Shown here piece after piece: positions 384 to 7,931 of a DNA stretch of 7,997 bases. Each line of letters starts with the position of its first letter. Position 1 is the first letter of the stretch. Under the pieces are notes generated by a model, which saw only the letters and a program-made list of their open reading frames with translations, made no database searches and had not been told where the DNA came from. Source of the DNA: a virus (Duplodnaviria > Heunggongvirae > Uroviricota > Caudoviricetes); IMG/VR virus record IMGVR_UViG_2671181111_000009, one strand, 5' to 3'. A program made the position numbers and the translations under genes.

Positions 384-459
384 TAGTTTTGCGCTCGTTG
401 CACTGGTTGGCATTGTAGCGTTGATTTGGGTGACATCCGGGAATCGGAGGCATAAGTGA
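376..459 (+). CDS. Small hydrophobic peptide, 27 aa (MLDSFALVALVGIVALIWVTSGNRRHK), single predicted TM helix with basic tail
   Basis: ATG at 376 preceded by AGAGG (365-369) with 6-nt spacer; ATG overlaps the upstream stop (GATGCTTGA); its TGA (457-459) overlaps the GTG start of the next ORF (GTGA). Fills the 73-bp intergenic gap exactly. Below the 60-aa cutoff of the ORF track. Confidence 0.3.
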   Translation: MLDSFALVALVGIVALIWVTSGNRRHK

Positions 460-890
460 ACGACAAAGAACTGATTAAAGAAATCAAAGAGCGTATCAGC
501 AGTTTGGATGTGCGAGACAATGTTGAACGCCGTGCTTATGAAATTGCTCTGGCATCGCTGACAGCAGAGCCGGTGGCGTGGAAGGTAACCTTCACGCAAA
601 TTGACCGTGAATATAACACGTTCACTGGTATGTATTCTGACAAAGCAGAAGTCGAACGGTGGGTGCGGCTGCATAAAGCATGTAATTTTCGGGCAGATAT
701 AACACCGCTTTATACCGCCCAGCCAGTGCCGGTAACTCCGGATGCCTGGATAAGCTGTAGTGAGCGAATGCCAGAAATGGGAGAGCGACAATGCTATGTG
801 TTAGCAGCTGACTTTAAAAACAACTACCCACCAAACATTGGCGCAGTTGTACGGAACGGATGTTGTGCGCATCCGGCAAAACCATCATGA
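456..890 (+). CDS. Phage hypothetical protein with DUF551-like C-terminal region (appears to lack the end of that domain)
   Basis: GTG start at 456 with strong SD GGAGG (446-450, 5-nt spacer); 144-aa ORF; C-terminal stretch PDAWISCSERMPEMGERQCYVLAADF resembles the start of the DUF551 family found next to Ea22-like genes in enterobacterial prophages (from memory). Confidence 0.5.
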   Translation: MNDKELIKEIKERISSLDVRDNVERRAYEIALASLTAEPVAWKVTFTQIDREYNTFTGMYSDKAEVERWVRLHKACNFRADITPLYTAQPVPVTPDAWISCSERMPEMGERQCYVLAADFKNNYPPNIGAVVRNGCCAHPAKPS

Positions 891-1545
891 AAACAAGTCG
901 CGCTTTGTTGAGGGGGTACACTTCTACAAGGTCGTTGGTGACGAGCTGCGCGCGCTAAAACACAAAGTAGCTTTAAACTACTTTGTGAAAAGTGCCCCAA
1001 ATGCACGCCACCTCATCCTCTGGACAGAGCGCGGAGCCGCCCGTCACGCGAAGATGCTCGAAACGGATCAGGCATGGGACGTGTTCGAAAAACTGGAGGA
1101 CGGCTACTTCAATCAGCGCGAAAAGGTTGCCAACCATCCTCAACCAGTACCGCAACCAGAAAGTAGCCTAGACCGTGCGCGAGCCATGGAAATAGCTTTG
1201 AACGTGGCGGATCGACTGGTGAATATGTTCCTGAATCTGTCCTCAGAATCAAAGCAGGCAGCAGTAGCTGGAGTGTTCAACCCGATTGTTGGTCGCGATG
1301 TTGTACCTCTGCCAGCTATCTCAGAGCACTACTACTCTGCTACGGAAGTCGGCCAGCGCTACGGTATTTCAGCCAACAAGGTAGGACGCATAGCCAACAC
1401 CTACATGCTCAAAACAGAAAAGTACGGGAAGTGGTTCATCGACAAATCGGCGCACAATGACAAGCAGGTTGAAACATTTCGGTACAACGAGGCTGGAGTG
1501 CACAAAATAGAGGAACTCATCGAAGGAGAGCGAAAGGCTGCATGA
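838..1545 (+). CDS. Phage antirepressor-like protein: ORF6N/Rha-like N-region plus KilAC/ANT-like HTH C-region; start codon uncertain (TTG 838 or GTG 865)
   Basis: 235-aa ORF; N-terminal LAQLYGTDVVRIRQNHHENKSRFVEGVHFYKV resembles the ORF6N domain motif (LAELYGV..LNQAVKRNIERFPEDFMFQL); C-terminal YYSATEVGQRYGISANKVGRIAN is HTH-like as in KilAC/ANT domains. No ATG and no SD near the ORF start; overlaps upstream ORF by 53 bp. Confidence 0.5.
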   Translation: MAQLYGTDVVRIRQNHHENKSRFVEGVHFYKVVGDELRALKHKVALNYFVKSAPNARHLILWTERGAARHAKMLETDQAWDVFEKLEDGYFNQREKVANHPQPVPQPESSLDRARAMEIALNVADRLVNMFLNLSSESKQAAVAGVFNPIVGRDVVPLPAISEHYYSATEVGQRYGISANKVGRIANTYMLKTEKYGKWFIDKSAHNDKQVETFRYNEAGVHKIEELIEGERKAA

Positions 1546-1623: not shown

Positions 1624-1653
1624 TTGACAACACCGCATTAACGGGGCTATATT
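1624..1653 (+). promoter_or_regulatory. Candidate sigma70 promoter (TTGACA -35 at 1624-1629; TATATT -10 at 1648-1653; 18-bp spacer)
   Basis: Consensus -35 hexamer and 5/6 -10 hexamer in an intergenic region; predicted TSS near 1660. Confidence 0.35.
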
Positions 1654-1662
1654 CCGCTTCAT

Positions 1663-1677
1663 GGTGCTGAACACACC
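1663..1677 (+). other. Hairpin GGTG-CTGAACA-CACC (7-nt loop CTGAACA)
   Basis: Inverted repeat read directly; lies just downstream of the candidate promoter. Confidence 0.35.
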
Positions 1678-1691
1678 TTGCAAAGCGGAAA

Positions 1692-1720
1692 CCGCACCCG
1701 TCAGTCATGCGGATTTTTTA
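1692..1720 (+). terminator. Weak intrinsic-terminator-like hairpin CCGCA...TGCGG followed by ATTTTTTA
   Basis: 5-bp GC-rich stem (1692-1696 / 1708-1712) with 11-nt loop, then T-tract 1714-1719. Confidence 0.3.
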
Positions 1721-1819
1721 TGTCCATTTTTCAGATATGGTCGGGTAGCGCGTATACCGAAAAACAGCCGAAAGGTTAAGGATACGGGCCGACTTTGCAC
1801 GGTGTTCAAGTACCTGACC

Positions 1820-1838
1820 GCCCTGCTGAACACAGGGC
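1820..1838 (+). other. Hairpin GCCCTG-CTGAACA-CAGGGC (same 7-nt loop as hairpin at 1663-1677), about 30 nt upstream of the AntA-like start
   Basis: Perfect 6-bp inverted repeat with loop CTGAACA; the 10-mer GCTGAACACA is exactly repeated at 1666-1675 and 1825-1834; a third CTGAACA at 1842-1848. Confidence 0.4.
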
Positions 1839-1866
1839 TATCTGAACAAATGCAAAGGACATAAAA

Positions 1867-2490
1867 ATGACCAGTCAACTCATCCCCGTATTCAACGGCA
1901 CTATATCCAACGAAACAACTCTTCTCGTTAATGCCCGTGATTTACACGAATTTTTGGAAGTACGTCGTGACTTCTCTACATGGATTAAAAATCGCATAAC
2001 AGAATACGGCTTTGCCGTTGATGTCGATTACATTTTGGTTCACCAAAACAGGGGGATCAAAGGACGTGGAGGCGATCGCCGTAGCAAAGACTATCACCTC
2101 ACCCTCGATACAGCCAAAGAAACGGCGATGGTCGAGCGTAACGAAAAAGGCCGCCAGATACGCCGATACTTCATCGAGTGCGAAAAGAAACTTCGCAGCA
2201 TGCAACCAGCGCAGCAATTCACAGACGAAGAAATCATCCTCCTTTGCTATATGCAGGTACAGATGGAGAATGCGCAGGACATCTGCAAACGTCTGTACCC
2301 GATATTGAAGGAACTGAACTCATCATACACGAGCAAGCTGTATGACATCGCGTTTGAAACTTTTTACACGGTGACGAAAAACAGAGATGTACTGCTAAGG
2401 GAGGCGACACGACTTGACCAAGCAAGCGCCCTTTTCGAACGGGCAAAACCAATGCTGAAAAGCCTTCGGGCGAGACAATTCGAATTTTAA
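1867..2490 (+). CDS. AntA/AntB-domain antirepressor-like protein (N-terminal AntA domain about residues 1-110; C-terminal about 95 aa of unknown function)
   Basis: ATG 1867 with SD AAGGA (1855-1859, 7-nt spacer); N-terminus LIPVFNGT...LVNARDLHEFLEV..DFSTWIKNRITEYGF...DYHLTLDTAKE.AMVE...GRQIRRYFI matches the AntA-domain pattern of phage antirepressors as I recall it. Confidence 0.65.
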   Translation: MTSQLIPVFNGTISNETTLLVNARDLHEFLEVRRDFSTWIKNRITEYGFAVDVDYILVHQNRGIKGRGGDRRSKDYHLTLDTAKETAMVERNEKGRQIRRYFIECEKKLRSMQPAQQFTDEEIILLCYMQVQMENAQDICKRLYPILKELNSSYTSKLYDIAFETFYTVTKNRDVLLREATRLDQASALFERAKPMLKSLRARQFEF

Positions 2491-2495
2491 TCATC

Positions 2496-2521
2496 AAAGG
2501 AGCTTCGGCTCCTTTTTTGTT
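2496..2521 (+). terminator. Rho-independent terminator (AAAGGAGC-TTCG-GCTCCTTT stem-loop plus T6 run)
   Basis: 8-bp stem with UUCG tetraloop followed by TTTTTTGTT, 6 bp after the AntA-like stop; the A-tract upstream makes it potentially bidirectional. Confidence 0.6.
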
Positions 2522-2548
2522 GGAGAAAATAAACCAATACTCGCTCCC

Positions 2549-2590
2549 TTGCGAGTAATTGCGGAGACTTTGCGATGTACTTGACACTTC
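2549..2590 (+). promoter_or_regulatory. pI-like cII-dependent promoter (TTGC-N6-TTGC at 2549-2562; predicted TSS just inside xis)
   Basis: Direct repeat TTGC gagtaa TTGC read in sequence; geometry relative to the xis ATG (2575) matches the known lambda pI arrangement in which the transcript begins inside xis. Confidence 0.5.
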
Positions 2591-2793
2591 AGGAGTGGAA
2601 CGCACGCCAGCGACGCCCAAGGAGCCTTGAAACAGTTCGTCGATGGGTACGCGAGTGCAGGATATTCCCTCCTCCGGTTAAGGATGGAAGAGAGTATTTG
2701 TTCCACGAATCAGCGGTAAAGGTTGACTTAAATCGACCAGTAACAGGTAGCCTTTTGAAGAGGATCAGAAATGGGAAGAAGGCGAAGTCATGA
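2575..2793 (+). CDS. xis: Excisionase Xis (lambda type), 72 aa
   Basis: Translation MYLTLQEWNARQRRPRSLETVRRWVRECRIFPPPVKDGREYLFHESAVKVDLNRPVTGSLLKRIRNGKKAKS recognised as lambda Xis; SD GGAG 8 nt upstream; overlaps int by 23 bp. Confidence 0.95.
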   Translation: MYLTLQEWNARQRRPRSLETVRRWVRECRIFPPPVKDGREYLFHESAVKVDLNRPVTGSLLKRIRNGKKAKS

Positions 2794-3841
2794 GCGCCGG
2801 GATTTACCCCCTAACCTTTATATAAGAAACAATGGATATTACTGCTACAGGGACCCAAGGACGGGTAAAGAGTTTGGATTAGGCCGAGACAGGCGAATCG
2901 CAATCACTGAAGCTATACAGGCCAACATTGAGTTATTTTCAGGACACAAACACAAGCCTCTGACAGCGAGAATCAACAGTGATAATTCTGTTACGTTACA
3001 TTCATGGCTTGATCGCTACGAAAAAATCTTCGCCAGCAGAGGAATCAAGCAGAAGACACTCATAAATTACATGAGCAAAATTAAAGCAATAAGGAGGGGG
3101 CTGCCTGATGCTCCACTTGAAGACATCACCACAAAAGAAATTGCGGCAATGCTCAATGGATACATAGACGAGGGCAAGGCGGCATCAGCCAAGTTAATCA
3201 GATCAACACTGAGCGATGCATTCCGAGAGGCAATAGCTGAAGGCCATATAACAACAAACCCGGTCGCTGCCACTCGCGCAGCAAAATCAGAGGTAAGGAG
3301 ATCAAGACTTACGGCTGACGAATACCTGAAAATTTATCAAGCAGCAGAATCATCACCATGTTGGCTCAGACTTGCAATGGAACTGGCTGTTGTTACCGGG
3401 CAACGAGTTGGTGATTTATGCGAAATGAAGTGGTCTGATATCGTAGATGGATATCTTTATGTCGAGCAAAGCAAAACAGGCGTAAAAATTGCCATCCCTA
3501 CAACATTGCATGTTGATGCTCTCGGGATATCAATGAAGGAAACACTTGATAAATGCAAAGAGATTCTTGGCGGAGAAACCATAATTGCATCTACTCGTCG
3601 TGAACCGCTTTCATCCGGCACAGTATCAAGGTATTTTATGCGCGCACGAAAAGCATCAGGTCTTTCCTTCGAAGGGGATCCACCTACCTTTCACGAGTTG
3701 CGCAGTTTGTCTGCAAGACTCTATGAGAAGCAGATAAGCGATAAGTTTGCTCAACATCTTCTCGGGCACAAGTCGGACACCATGGCATCACAGTATCGTG
3801 ATGACAGAGGCAGGGAGTGGGACAAAATTGAAATCAAATAA
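2771..3841 (+). CDS. int: Tyrosine integrase Int (lambda type), 356 aa
   Basis: Translation MGRRRSHERRDLPPNLYIRNNGYYCYRDPRTGKEFGLGRDRRIAITEAIQ... through ...HLLGHKSDTMASQYRDDRGREWDKIEIK recognised as lambda Int, including the catalytic R..HxxR..Y region. Confidence 0.97.
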   Translation: MGRRRSHERRDLPPNLYIRNNGYYCYRDPRTGKEFGLGRDRRIAITEAIQANIELFSGHKHKPLTARINSDNSVTLHSWLDRYEKIFASRGIKQKTLINYMSKIKAIRRGLPDAPLEDITTKEIAAMLNGYIDEGKAASAKLIRSTLSDAFREAIAEGHITTNPVAATRAAKSEVRRSRLTADEYLKIYQAAESSPCWLRLAMELAVVTGQRVGDLCEMKWSDIVDGYLYVEQSKTGVKIAIPTTLHVDALGISMKETLDKCKEILGGETIIASTRREPLSSGTVSRYFMRARKASGLSFEGDPPTFHELRSLSARLYEKQISDKFAQHLLGHKSDTMASQYRDDRGREWDKIEIK

Positions 3842-5259: not shown

Positions 5260-5275
5260 GAGCTATTAACTATTT

Positions 5276-5385
<110 letters not shown>

Positions 5386-5399
5386 TCACATGGCGCTTT

Positions 5400-7580: not shown

Positions 7581-7633
7581 CAAATGCTCCAGATATCTGC
7601 GCACCGTGAAGTGCGCAGAAAGATAATAAATGG

Positions 7634-7762
7634 ATATACTCTAAATAATTCGAGTTGCAGGAAGGCGACAAGTGAGTGAATCCCCAGGAGCTTACATAAG
7701 TAAGTGACTGGGGTGAGCGAACGCAGACGCAGCACATGCAACTTGAAGTATGACGAGTATAT
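7634..7762. repeat. ERIC (enterobacterial repetitive intergenic consensus / IRU) element
   Basis: Contains GTGAATCCCCAGGAGCTTACAT and AAGTAAGTGACTGGGGTGAGCG, exact matches to the ERIC1R (reverse complement) and ERIC2 primer sequences, with the characteristic central inverted repeat. Confidence 0.85.
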
Positions 7763-7931
7763 TTACAGCATGTTCCAGCCGATCAGCATATTCCACCACC
7801 ACACGCCGAGGGTGATATGCACCAAGAAGGTTAATATCGTCAGTACCGCACCGACCAACCACCAGGATTTAATATCGTTGTAACCCACGCCAAAGATGAC
7901 CGGACCTGCCGCGCCGCCATAGTGAGTAACC
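7763..7931 (-). pseudogene. ybhI: 3'-terminal fragment (about 55 codons) of a ybhI-like DASS-family anion transporter gene, separated from the rest of the gene by IS1
   Basis: Hydrophobic C-terminal peptide ...THYGGAAGPVIFGVGYNDIKSWWLVGAVLTILTFLVHITLGVWWWNMLIGWNML; reading frame runs directly into the IS1 inverted repeat and hits a stop inside IS1; K-12 synteny places ybhI upstream of ybhJ. Confidence 0.6.

What the first reader, a model, noticed from the sequence alone, without database searches (positions are those of the whole stretch)
1867..2521. AntA-domain protein with an unassigned C-terminal half, embedded in a moron-like unit (own promoter region upstream, strong terminator downstream)
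The 207-aa protein has a clear AntA-type N-terminal domain, but the C-terminal 95 residues (EEIILLCYMQVQMENAQDICKRLYPILKELNSSYTSKLYDIAFETFYTVTKNRDVLLREATRLDQASALFERAKPMLKSLRARQFEF) do not match the KilAC domain that usually follows AntA. Together with the upstream ORF6N/KilAC-like gene this gives two antirepressor-type genes in tandem next to xis/int. The unit is bracketed by the structured promoter region and a strong UUCG-loop terminator, typical of independently expressed lysogenic-conversion or anti-defence morons.
Basis: partly seen in the sequence, partly recalled or inferred. Interest (0 to 1): 0.5.

Follow-up and report, generated by a model that had tools for sequence, protein, structure and literature searches.

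The report
RNA-gated phage antirepressor cassette
The gene is an ordinary, already catalogued prophage antirepressor whose "unassigned" half is the C-terminal domain of phage P22 Ant, and its "structured promoter region" is a phage-P1-style antisense-RNA switch that most likely keeps the gene's ribosome-binding site blocked in the lysogen.

Summary
The ORF (1867-2490, 207 aa), its AntA domain, an upstream near-consensus promoter and a strong downstream terminator are all real. The central claim is wrong. Residues 115-178 match Pfam P22_AR_C above its cutoff and align with P22 Ant residues 186-272. The whole protein matches PHROG 377 "anti-repressor Ant" end to end, and all 120 listed relatives (of 4,352 hits) have the same AntA+P22_AR_C architecture.

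The more interesting part lies upstream. Positions 1739-1827 are a full-length Rfam sRNA-Xcc1 element. Two of its unpaired segments, b' (CTTTGCA) and a' (GTGTTCA), are exactly complementary to sites upstream of it (a1, b1) and downstream of it (a2, b2), and b2 overlaps the ant Shine-Dalgarno. This is the layout of the P1 c4-icd-ant immunity region and of the Gifsy-1 isrK-anrP locus.

Across 12 specificity variants the loop and both targets change together (0 of 20,000 shuffles reach the observed match). In phage contigs found through the RNA alone, about 86 of 99 downstream proteins carry antirepressor-type domains.

Verdict: a new member of a known kind, an RNA-controlled antirepressor cassette. 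It is not a novel-domain or anti-defence moron. No expression or function was measured here.

The parts
1624..1653 (+). Cassette promoter: -35 TTGACA (1624-1629), 18-nt spacer, -10 TATATT (1648-1653). The transcript would start at about 1660.
   Evidence: 11 of 12 matches. A promoter at the equivalent position is present in every leader class. There is no LexA-box-like site nearby.
1663..1685 (+). a1 and b1 sites. a1 (TGAACAC, 1668-1674) lies in the 7-nt loop of hairpin GGTG/CACC (1663-1677). b1 (TGCAAAG, 1679-1685) is single-stranded. They are exact copies of a2 and b2 and complementary to a' and b'.
   Evidence: This matches the annotated a1/b1 sites of P1 and the Rfam c4-a1b1/isrK region in L074.
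1685..1722 (+). End of the leader: small hairpin GCGG-AAA-CCGC (1685-1695), competing with CCGCA...TGCGG (1692-1712), followed by U6 (1714-1719) and a conserved ATG (1720-1722). This is the position of the IsrK terminator in Gifsy-1-type leaders.
   Evidence: The sequence is conserved in all classes and in P1. The fold is weak (z = 0.02), so termination here is inferred, not shown.
1739..1827 (+). c4-type antisense RNA of the Rfam sRNA-Xcc1 family. Closing stem 1739-1747/1811-1819, hairpin 1 with a GAAA loop, hairpin 2, and a 3' tail GCCCUGCU.
   Evidence: RF02221, 68.3 bits (gathering score 53), E = 3.7e-11, model positions 1-87 of 87. The helices covary in 103 distinct elements. An element of this kind occupies the same position in 77 of 80 Ant-homolog loci.
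1793..1808 (+). Recognition segments of the RNA: b' (CTTTGCA, 1793-1799, loop of hairpin 2) and a' (GTGTTCA, 1802-1808, 3' junction).
   Evidence: The order b' then a' is the same as in P1 c4. These are the hypervariable segments of the family.
1820..1859 (+). Target region on the ant mRNA. a2 (TGAACAC, 1827-1833) lies in the loop of hairpin GCCCTG/CAGGGC (1820-1838). There is a second a2-like TGAACA (1843-1848). b2 (TGCAAAG, 1851-1857) overlaps the Shine-Dalgarno AAGGA (1855-1859), 10 nt before the ATG.
   Evidence: hairpin z = -2.2. In P1, b2 ends 11 nt before the icd ATG.
1867..2490 (+). ant: a 207-aa antirepressor-family protein with an AntA domain (residues 21-92, nt 1927-2142) and a P22_AR_C domain (residues 115-178, nt 2209-2400).
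2496..2521 (+). Intrinsic terminator of the cassette: 8-bp stem, UUCG loop, U-run.
   Evidence: Conserved in 73 of 80 loci. Homology to lambda-type xis-int starts at 2548.

Best explanation
Positions 1624-2521 form a self-contained immunity cassette: an antirepressor gene (ant) gated by an antisense RNA, inserted just upstream of xis-int in a lambdoid prophage sitting next to host genes I recognise as ybhC and ybhJ.

Proposed mechanism:
1. The promoter (1624-1653) transcribes a leader carrying the a1 and b1 sites, then a c4-type structured RNA (1739-1827), then the ant mRNA.
2. The RNA, acting within the same transcript or after processing, pairs through its hairpin-2 loop (b') and its 3' junction (a') with a2 and b2 on the ant mRNA. 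b2 covers the Shine-Dalgarno, so Ant is not translated in the lysogen. Incoming phages with the same RNA specificity are blocked in the same way.
3. The upstream a1/b1 copies are exact mimics of a2/b2. By analogy with IsrK of Gifsy-1, a short leader RNA carrying them would compete for the antisense RNA and switch ant translation on when it is in excess.
4. Ant, by homology with P22 Ant, would bind and inactivate a CI-type repressor and so favour induction.

Shown here: the anatomy, the family memberships, the complementarity and its covariation, and the general link between this RNA family and antirepressor-type genes.

Inferred: that the pairing blocks translation, that the RNA is processed, the decoy role of a1/b1, and the antirepressor activity and target of the protein.
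For: (1) Rfam sRNA-Xcc1 hit, full length and above the gathering score, ending 40 nt before the ant ATG.
(2) Exact 7-nt complementarity of b' to b1 and b2, and of a' to a1 and a2, with b2 overlapping the SD.
(3) Same order and nearly the same spacing as the curated P1 region: promoters, a1, b1, c4, a2, b2, then the start codon 11 nt on. P1's leader also has the GCGG...CCGCA...TGCGG plus U-run segment after b1.
(4) Covariation. Among 12 distinct specificities, the cognate RNA carries the complement of its anchored b2 for 6-8 nt in 11 of 12 and of its b1 in 12 of 12. 108 of 132 non-cognate pairs have no match. 0 of 20,000 shuffles reach the observed sum.
(5) 77 of 80 Ant-homolog loci have this RNA in the same position. 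The other 3 were missed by the nhmmer profile; two of them were scanned with Rfam and carry isrK plus C4 there.
(6) RNA-first sampling. In 122 elements found by the RNA core alone, three-way matches of at least 7 nt occur in 53% against 4% of controls. 99 distinct downstream proteins gave 86 matches to antirepressor-type N-terminal families (P22_AR_N 21, Bro-N 17, AntA 16, KilA-N 16, pRha 8, ORF6N 8) and 31 matches to P22_AR_C.
(7) The Rfam isrK hit overlaps c4-a1b1 in L074, so IsrK is the a1/b1 leader RNA. In Gifsy-1 the read-through isrK-anrP transcript is translationally silent, short IsrK in trans raises anrP translation 139-fold, a stable processed RNA lies downstream of IsrK, and the locus is needed for spontaneous induction (PMC4825925).
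(8) EHEC EDL933 has the same module. A published RNA-seq/Ribo-seq table lists an 89-nt minus-strand sRNA-Xcc1 with tens of thousands of RNA reads and a ribosome-coverage value of 0.02 (PMC5331693).
(9) Protein: AntA plus P22_AR_C, PHROG 377 'anti-repressor Ant' at E = 4e-90, and alignment with the C-terminal part of P22 Ant. Deleting the ant gene of Stx phage Phi24B, whose Ant has a P22-like C-terminus, lowers late-promoter activity after induction to 27-56% of wild type (PMC3064807).
Against: Nothing was measured for this cassette: no transcript ends, no processing, no translation data, no Ant-repressor interaction.

The Rfam C4, c4-a1b1 and isrK models do not hit the window at E <= 1, so kinship with c4 rests on topology, leader similarity and position rather than on a shared model.

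The leader hairpin before the U-run is thermodynamically weak and competes with another small hairpin, so a discrete IsrK-like short RNA is uncertain here.

There is no icd/orf45-type coupled leader ORF. P1 Ant1 (KilAC) shows no similarity to this protein.

In one variant (L060/L048b) b2 matches only 4 nt, although a2 matches 7.

The identity of the EDL933 transcript with this locus is inferred from length, strand and proximity, because the paper used a different assembly.

Published work on sRNA-Xcc1 in Xanthomonas describes it as a trans-acting, virulence-linked sRNA (as cited).
Confidence: 0.75

Rival explanations
1. One reading: an independently expressed lysogenic-conversion or anti-defence moron whose protein carries a new, uncharacterised C-terminal domain.
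For: The unit has a promoter, one gene and a terminator, and it varies in presence among related phages. The biochemical role of P22_AR_C is not established, and the last ~25 residues have no Pfam model.
Against: The C-terminal half is P22_AR_C and aligns with P22 Ant. The architecture is shared by all 120 listed relatives already named antirepressor. The leader is a c4-type control region that specifically accompanies antirepressor-type genes. A constitutively expressed conversion gene would not need its RBS masked by a cognate RNA. The PADLOC defence-protein library was not searched.
Confidence: 0.05
2. The RNA control is as described, but the protein is not a repressor-binding antirepressor. 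It could be a DNA-binding regulator or a toxic effector with another target, since its N-terminal domain belongs to the shuffled KilA-N/Bro-N/ORF6N/AntA set.
For: Extensive domain shuffling. P22_AR_C occurs behind four different N-terminal domains, and AntA occurs in front of at least four other C-terminal halves that have no Pfam assignment. 'Antirepressor' names in the databases come from homology, not from tests. The AF2 model was unusable and no solved relative was found.
Against: The shared C-terminal domain comes from the one protein in this set with classical genetic and biochemical antirepressor evidence, P22 Ant. A Phi24B Ant with a P22-like C-terminus assists induction. AnrP, behind an IsrK/C4 leader, induces Gifsy-1.
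Confidence: 0.13
3. The sRNA-Xcc1 element is mainly a trans-acting sRNA aimed at host genes, as described for Xanthomonas, and its position next to ant is incidental.
For: Published descriptions of sRNA-Xcc1 as an integron-borne, HrpG/HrpX-controlled trans-acting sRNA, and target predictions in Xylella. The transcript is abundant in EHEC.
Against: The variable loop covaries with two flanking sites in cis across 12 specificities in one set and 68 distinct matched words in another. The downstream gene is of antirepressor type in most cases, about 86 of 99. Host targets cannot explain that. An additional trans role is not excluded.
Confidence: 0.04
4. The cassette is an inactive relic in a decaying prophage.
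For: The neighbouring ORF6N and DUF551 genes look truncated at a deletion junction at about 835-845. In the closest genome the adjacent int is frameshifted and IS elements interrupt the prophage.
Against: The ant ORF, promoter, RNA, all six pairing sites, the SD and the terminator are intact. The identical protein is on record in hundreds of contigs. int and xis are intact in the window.
Confidence: 0.03

Closest known systems
Phage P1/P7 immI region (c4 antisense RNA - icd - ant1/ant2)
   Same: Promoter, a1, b1, structured RNA with b' then a', a2, and b2 over the ribosome-binding site, on one strand and with almost identical spacing. The same GCGG...CCGCA...TGCGG plus U-run segment follows b1. 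The same RNA topology: closing stem, two hairpins, b' in the loop of hairpin 2, a' in the 3' junction, and an ACC-rich tail.
   Different: The RNA scores with Rfam sRNA-Xcc1 and not with C4 or c4-a1b1. There is no icd-type leader ORF, so b2 masks the SD of ant itself. The protein is AntA+P22_AR_C, whereas P1 Ant1 is KilAC only and shows no similarity. No C1-type operator is evident. The cassette sits in a lambdoid prophage next to xis-int.
Gifsy-1 isrK - orf45 (STnc1160) - anrP locus of Salmonella (PMC4825925)
   Same: A prophage cassette in which an a1/b1-bearing leader RNA and a downstream processed RNA control translation of an antirepressor-like gene. The Rfam isrK+C4 pair occupies the identical slot in front of AntA-domain genes in L074 and L075.
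   Different: The isrK model does not hit the window. The leader terminator here is weak. The short ORF that starts after the U-run stops after 19 codons, 85 nt before ant, so translational coupling as for orf45-anrP is unlikely. No antQ-like gene is seen in the window.
Phage P22 Ant (immI: mnt, arc, sar, ant)
   Same: The C-terminal P22_AR_C domain. An antirepressor kept silent in the lysogen, partly by a small antisense RNA.
   Different: The N-terminal domain is AntA, not P22_AR_N. There are no Mnt or Arc repressor genes here. The P22 sar RNA is transcribed from the opposite strand across the ant start, while the RNA here is encoded on the same strand upstream.
sRNA-Xcc1 (Rfam RF02221) as described in Xanthomonas
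   Same: Sequence and structure family membership above the curated threshold.
   Different: It is described there as an integron-borne, virulence-linked trans-acting sRNA. Here, and in the phage contigs sampled, it is a cis-linked leader of antirepressor-type genes with a matched target at the SD.

Membership tests
Pfam AntA (PF08346) | Profile match above the gathering score | tested here: met
   92.8 bits against 27, residues 21-92, profile positions 1-68 of 68.
Pfam P22_AR_C (PF10548) | Profile match above the gathering score; homology to the C-terminal part of P22 Ant | tested here: met
   38.6 bits against 22.4, residues 115-178. BLASTP against P22 Ant residues 186-272, E = 2e-8.
Pfam KilAC / ANT (PF03374) | Profile match in the C-terminal half | tested here: not met
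   No hit at E <= 1 for either the ant protein or the upstream ORF6N protein. P1 Ant1 and KilA do hit this model.
Rfam sRNA-Xcc1 (RF02221) | Covariance-model score at or above the gathering score | tested here: met
   68.3 bits against 53, full length, 1739-1827 on the + strand.
Rfam C4 / c4-a1b1 (clan CL00128) and isrK | Covariance-model match | tested here: not met
   No C4, c4-a1b1 or isrK match in the window at E <= 1. The same models do hit P1 and L074.
P1-type immI (c4-controlled ant) | Structured RNA encoded on the same strand upstream of ant | tested here: met
P1-type immI (c4-controlled ant) | Two RNA segments (a', b') complementary both to a1/b1 upstream and to a2/b2 downstream | tested here: met
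   Exact 7-nt matches at 1668-1674, 1679-1685, 1827-1833 and 1851-1857. The matches covary across 12 variants; 0 of 20,000 shuffles reach the observed sum.
P1-type immI (c4-controlled ant) | b2 overlaps the ribosome-binding site of the first downstream ORF | tested here: met
   b2 at 1851-1857 against the SD at 1855-1859, with the ATG at 1867.
P1-type immI (c4-controlled ant) | An icd-type leader ORF translationally coupled to ant | tested here: not met
   ant follows b2 directly. The only ORF in the leader (ATG at 1720) ends at 1779. The 67-aa ORF at 1661-1864 is not conserved: the same frame stops after 8 codons in L077.
P1-type immI (c4-controlled ant) | The RNA is matured from the leader transcript (by RNase P in P1; my own background knowledge) and represses translation | not testable with these tools
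   Indirect only: an ACC-rich tail after the closing stem, and an abundant untranslated transcript in EHEC.
Gifsy-1 isrK-type control | A short leader RNA ending at an intrinsic terminator between b1 and the c4-type RNA | tested here: inconclusive
   The hairpin plus U6 is conserved at the right place, but it is weak, with z = 0.02 and a competing hairpin.
Moron (autonomous promoter-gene-terminator insertion in a phage operon) | Own promoter, own terminator, and presence or absence between otherwise related phages | tested here: met
   Met by sequence only; transcription was not measured. Benefit to the host was not tested, and the control logic argues for a phage regulatory role.

The most novel reading that the evidence does not exclude
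The whole Rfam sRNA-Xcc1 family, so far described as a virulence-linked trans-acting sRNA and placed in no Rfam clan, would be a structural variant of the P1 c4 immunity RNA. It would have a conserved scaffold and a programmable 6-8-nt loop that gates translation of shuffled antirepressor genes, with a matching upstream decoy (an IsrK-like leader).

The many specificities (68 distinct matched words in 122 elements), and the fact that leaders are exchanged independently of the gene (L005 encodes the identical Ant behind a different loop), would make it an RNA 'barcode' by which co-resident prophages tell their own antirepressor from a foreign one.
Probability: 0.4. Interest if true: 0.5.

Novelty: new member of a known kind. 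Interest (0 to 1): 0.33.

Why it matters
For the finding as it was written, little: the protein is an annotated antirepressor with a known two-domain architecture.

The surroundings are worth a note. They show that a widely annotated "sRNA-Xcc1" element in E. coli, Shigella and Salmonella prophages is the c4/IsrK-type switch of an antirepressor gene, with a readable specificity code. This gives a direct way to predict which co-resident or superinfecting lambdoid phages, including Stx phages, share secondary immunity, and to test RNA-level control of prophage induction. It also suggests that Rfam should link RF02221 with the C4 clan.

Tried and rejected
- AlphaFold2 on the only alignment the tool would accept (17 sequences, 83-100% identical) gave mean pLDDT 47, with the whole C-terminal half below 50. 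I therefore ran no fold search.
- Sequence and profile searches of the PDB found no relative.
- NCBIfam had no model for the protein.
- My first position-wise b'/b2 test used MFE-predicted loop ends as the anchor and failed, because predicted stems run into the loop by varying amounts. A second version had a regex bug that moved the b2 anchor by one base. The corrected version is.
- RNAalifold on the 18-sequence MAFFT alignment was uninformative because hairpin 2 was misaligned between classes. The 103-sequence set worked for hairpin 1 and hairpin 2 but still did not recover the closing stem.
- An attenuator model, in which b1 pairing shifts the balance between GCGG/CCGC and the CCGCA/TGCGG terminator, was considered. 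I dropped it as a claim because the alternative pairing is not conserved in the L060 class.
- The 67-aa ORF at 1661-1864, which ends 2 nt before the ant ATG, was considered as an icd/orf45 analogue and rejected because it is not conserved.
- A LexA box at the promoter: none found.
- The original sRNA-Xcc1 paper (Chen et al. 2011) was not available. One paper I opened was irrelevant.
- The PADLOC library was not searched.
Full report
**1. What is at the coordinates**

The window holds an ORF at 1867-2490 on the + strand, 207 aa, exactly as described. It lies at the left end of a lambdoid prophage. Upstream are an Ead/Ea22-like gene, a DUF551 gene and an ORF6N gene. Downstream are a lambda-type excisionase (2575-2793) and integrase (2771-3841). 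Beyond them are two host genes that match NCBIfam PRK10531 and PRK11413. I recognise these as ybhC and ybhJ at the lambda attachment site; that identification is from my own knowledge.

The same cassette is 99.9% identical in E. coli FDAARGOS_944, where NCBI annotates the gene as "antA/AntB antirepressor family protein". Other genomes call it "phage antirepressor Ant".

**2. The protein**

Pfam finds AntA at residues 21-92 (92.8 bits) and also P22_AR_C at residues 115-178 (38.6 bits, cutoff 22.4). PHROG 377 "anti-repressor Ant" matches end to end (E = 4e-90), and the C-terminal 100 residues alone still match it (E = 1e-33).

P22 Ant itself consists of P22_AR_N plus P22_AR_C. BLASTP aligns residues 98-184 of the window protein with P22 Ant residues 186-272 (E = 2e-8). 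A search of 5.8 billion proteins gave 4,352 hits, and all 120 listed have the precomputed architecture PF08346+PF10548.

So the C-terminal half is not unassigned. P1 Ant1 is KilAC only and shows no similarity to this protein.

The family is a product of domain shuffling. P22_AR_C follows AntA (window, L072), ORF6N (L077), Bro-N (second gene of L053) or P22_AR_N (P22). AntA precedes at least four other C-terminal halves that have no Pfam match (L071, L074, L075, L080).

Structure prediction failed for lack of a deep alignment (mean pLDDT 47), and no solved relative was found.

**3. The region upstream is an RNA gene, not just a promoter**

An Rfam scan gives a full-length sRNA-Xcc1 match at 1739-1827 on the coding strand (68.3 bits, gathering score 53, E = 3.7e-11). 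It ends 40 nt before the ant ATG. A near-consensus promoter lies at 1624-1653.

Two unpaired segments of the RNA are exactly complementary to two pairs of sites:
- b' = CTTTGCA (1793-1799, loop of hairpin 2).
- a' = GTGTTCA (1802-1808, 3' junction).
- Upstream sites: a1 (TGAACAC, 1668-1674) and b1 (TGCAAAG, 1679-1685).
- Downstream sites: a2 (TGAACAC, 1827-1833) and b2 (TGCAAAG, 1851-1857).

b2 overlaps the Shine-Dalgarno AAGGA (1855-1859). a1 and a2 each sit in the 7-nt loop of a small hairpin, and b2 is single-stranded.

**4. This is the P1 c4 layout**

The curated P1 record lists, in order: two c4 promoters, a1, b1, the 77-nt c4 RNA, a2, b2, then icd 11 nt later and ant1. In c4, b' precedes a', as it does here.

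P1's leader also has, right after b1, the segment CGGACAACCGCAGATTTCCGATATTGCGGTATTTTTGTGTCC. The window has GCGGAAACCGCACCCGTCAGTCATGCGGATTTTTTATGTCC at the same place. The leaders are therefore homologous, not just analogous.

The Rfam consensus structures of C4 and sRNA-Xcc1 have the same topology: closing stem, hairpin 1 with a tetraloop, hairpin 2 with a large loop, a 6-7-nt junction and an ACC-rich tail. However, the C4, c4-a1b1 and isrK models themselves do not hit the window, and Rfam places sRNA-Xcc1 in no clan.

**5. Comparative test, starting from the protein**

Of 80 sequences searched (79 phage contigs encoding relatives of the protein, plus the window itself), 77 have this RNA on the same strand just upstream. 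The other three were missed by the nhmmer profile. L074 and L075 carry an isrK+C4 pair in the same slot; L076 was not scanned with Rfam.

The scaffold is conserved, while the hairpin-2 loop and the junction are hypervariable. I extracted b1 and b2 by anchors that do not depend on complementarity: the 8 nt before the conserved CGG, and the 8 nt ending at the first G of the SD GGA. Results for 12 distinct specificities:
- b1 and b2 are identical at 7-8 of 8 positions in 10 of 12.
- The cognate RNA contains the complement of b2 for 6-8 nt in 11 of 12, and of b1 in 12 of 12.
- 108 of 132 non-cognate pairs have no match.
- None of 20,000 shuffles reaches the observed sum.

L005 encodes a protein 100% identical to the window's but has a different loop (CTTTGAAG), so leaders are exchanged independently of the gene.

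**6. Comparative test, starting from the RNA**

I scanned phage contigs for the conserved RNA core alone. In 122 elements with enough flank, a three-way match of at least 7 nt occurs in 53% against 4.1% of non-cognate controls, and of at least 6 nt in 89% against 20%. There are 68 distinct matched words.

Pfam matches among 99 distinct proteins encoded just downstream:

| Domain | Members |
|---|---|
| P22_AR_C | 31 |
| P22_AR_N | 21 |
| Bro-N | 17 |
| AntA | 16 |
| KilA-N | 16 |
| Phage_pRha | 8 |
| ORF6N | 8 |
| ORF6C | 8 |

The six N-terminal families in this table (P22_AR_N, Bro-N, AntA, KilA-N, Phage_pRha, ORF6N) add up to 86 matches, so about 86 of the 99 proteins are of antirepressor type, provided no protein carries two of them.

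RNAalifold on 103 distinct elements predicts the hairpin-1 and hairpin-2 stems, and 8 of 10 predicted pairs show compensatory changes (for example column pair 23:53 is AU in 46 and GC in 43; 59:75 is CG in 41, GC in 34 and UA in 14). The closing stem was not recovered because of alignment gaps, although compensating sequences are visible by eye in that alignment.

**7. Link to experiments**

In L074 the Rfam isrK hit (2266-2340) overlaps c4-a1b1 (2253-2305). It ends in a hairpin plus U-run, followed by C4, then a2, then b2 at the SD. IsrK is therefore the a1/b1 leader RNA.

For Gifsy-1, Hershko-Shalev et al. (PMC4825925) showed the following:
- PisrK makes a short terminated IsrK RNA and a read-through isrK-orf45-anrP transcript that is transcribed but not translated.
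- Short IsrK in trans raises anrP translation 139-fold.
- A stable processed RNA (STnc1160) lies downstream of IsrK.
- AnrP induces Gifsy-1, and deleting PisrK abolishes spontaneous phage production.

The authors compare this locus with P4 seqA/CI/seqC.

EHEC EDL933 has an 89-nt sRNA-Xcc1 element directly upstream of a "phage antirepressor Ant" gene, with b1 = b2 = CAAATAAG. A published RNA-seq/Ribo-seq table for that strain lists an 89-nt minus-strand sRNA-Xcc1 with very many RNA reads and a ribosome-coverage value of 0.02 (PMC5331693). The paper used another assembly, so I infer rather than show that it is the same locus.

For the protein side, the Stx phage Phi24B has an Ant with a P22-like C-terminus. 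Deleting it lowers late-promoter activity after norfloxacin to 27-56% of wild type and has no effect on superinfection (PMC3064807).

**8. Most likely mechanism**

The cassette promoter transcribes leader, RNA and ant. The RNA's b' and a' pair with b2 and a2 and mask the SD, so Ant is not made in the lysogen. A phage carrying the same specificity would also be silenced. The a1/b1 copies mimic the target and, as a short leader RNA, could titrate the antisense RNA and switch ant on. Ant would then inactivate a CI-type repressor.

The anatomy, the covariation and the family links are shown. The repression itself, the processing, the decoy role and the protein's target are inferred.

Points against or left open:
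- The leader hairpin before the U-run is weak.
- There is no coupled leader ORF.
- One variant has a poor b2 match.
- There is no LexA box.

**9. Verdict**

The interpretation as a novel-domain, anti-defence or conversion moron is not supported, although the moron-like anatomy holds: own promoter, own terminator, and presence or absence against HK106, HK97 and 434.

The thing is a new member of a known kind, a c4/IsrK-type RNA-gated antirepressor cassette. Its RNA belongs to a family (sRNA-Xcc1) that the literature I could search does not connect with c4 or antirepressors. The only near-miss is a remark that APSE phages have it upstream of an ORF6N gene.

Noticed in passing
window 456-1545 (junction at about 835-845): The DUF551 ORF matches only the first half of its profile (positions 1-34 of 68), and the ORF6N ORF starts at profile position 17, in another frame. 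Homology to an intact ORF6N protein (L077) begins at the very first residues. This looks like a deletion that fused two truncated genes. The closest genome (L001) has a gene there that shares only the C-terminal half (62% identity).
   Followed up: partly
window 1714-1722, and the same place in L039, L074 and P1 (L081 at about 8301-8312): The U-run that ends the leader is followed directly by ATG (GTG in P1) in all classes. In Gifsy-1 this would be the first AUG of orf45. Here the ORF has only 19 codons (1720-1779), but in the EDL933/L039 class it appears to run through the whole RNA; I did not count the codons. I cannot explain why this start codon is conserved.
   Followed up: partly
L048 (1838-1926 and 2375-2460), L053 (2377-2461 and 3260-3349), L187, L192: Some phage contigs carry two RNA-plus-ant cassettes in tandem, each with its own specificity loop. 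In L053 the second gene is Bro-N+P22_AR_C.
   Followed up: partly
L071, L074, L075, L080 (genes starting at 2501): These AntA-domain proteins have C-terminal halves with no Pfam match at all. They, rather than the window protein, fit the description 'AntA with an unassigned C-terminal half'.
   Followed up: no
window 5262-5397: Three sub-threshold naRNA4 (REP-type repeat) matches lie between the two host genes.
   Followed up: no
window 7625-7763: Sub-threshold Rfam matches to V_AS5 (46 bits, gathering score 96) and isrH lie upstream of the ybhJ-like gene. No explanation was sought.
   Followed up: no
L001 (E. coli FDAARGOS_944, NZ_CP065613 3,544,917-3,564,217): The near-identical ant-xis-int segment there lies next to lpdA/aceEF, not next to the ybhC-like gene. 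Its int is frameshifted, and IS4 and IS600 copies sit in the prophage's early-left region.
   Followed up: no
L064 3246-3532 and 4904-4976; L041, L055 and L084 (EDL933): A group II intron lies just downstream of the ant cassette in L064. hok/sok toxin-antitoxin loci lie close to the cassette in several contigs and in EDL933.
   Followed up: no
window 2538-2557: A second inverted repeat (TACTCGCTCCCTTGCGAGTA), scored as terminator-like on the minus strand, lies between the ant terminator and xis. It straddles the point (2548) where homology to lambda-type phages resumes.
   Followed up: no
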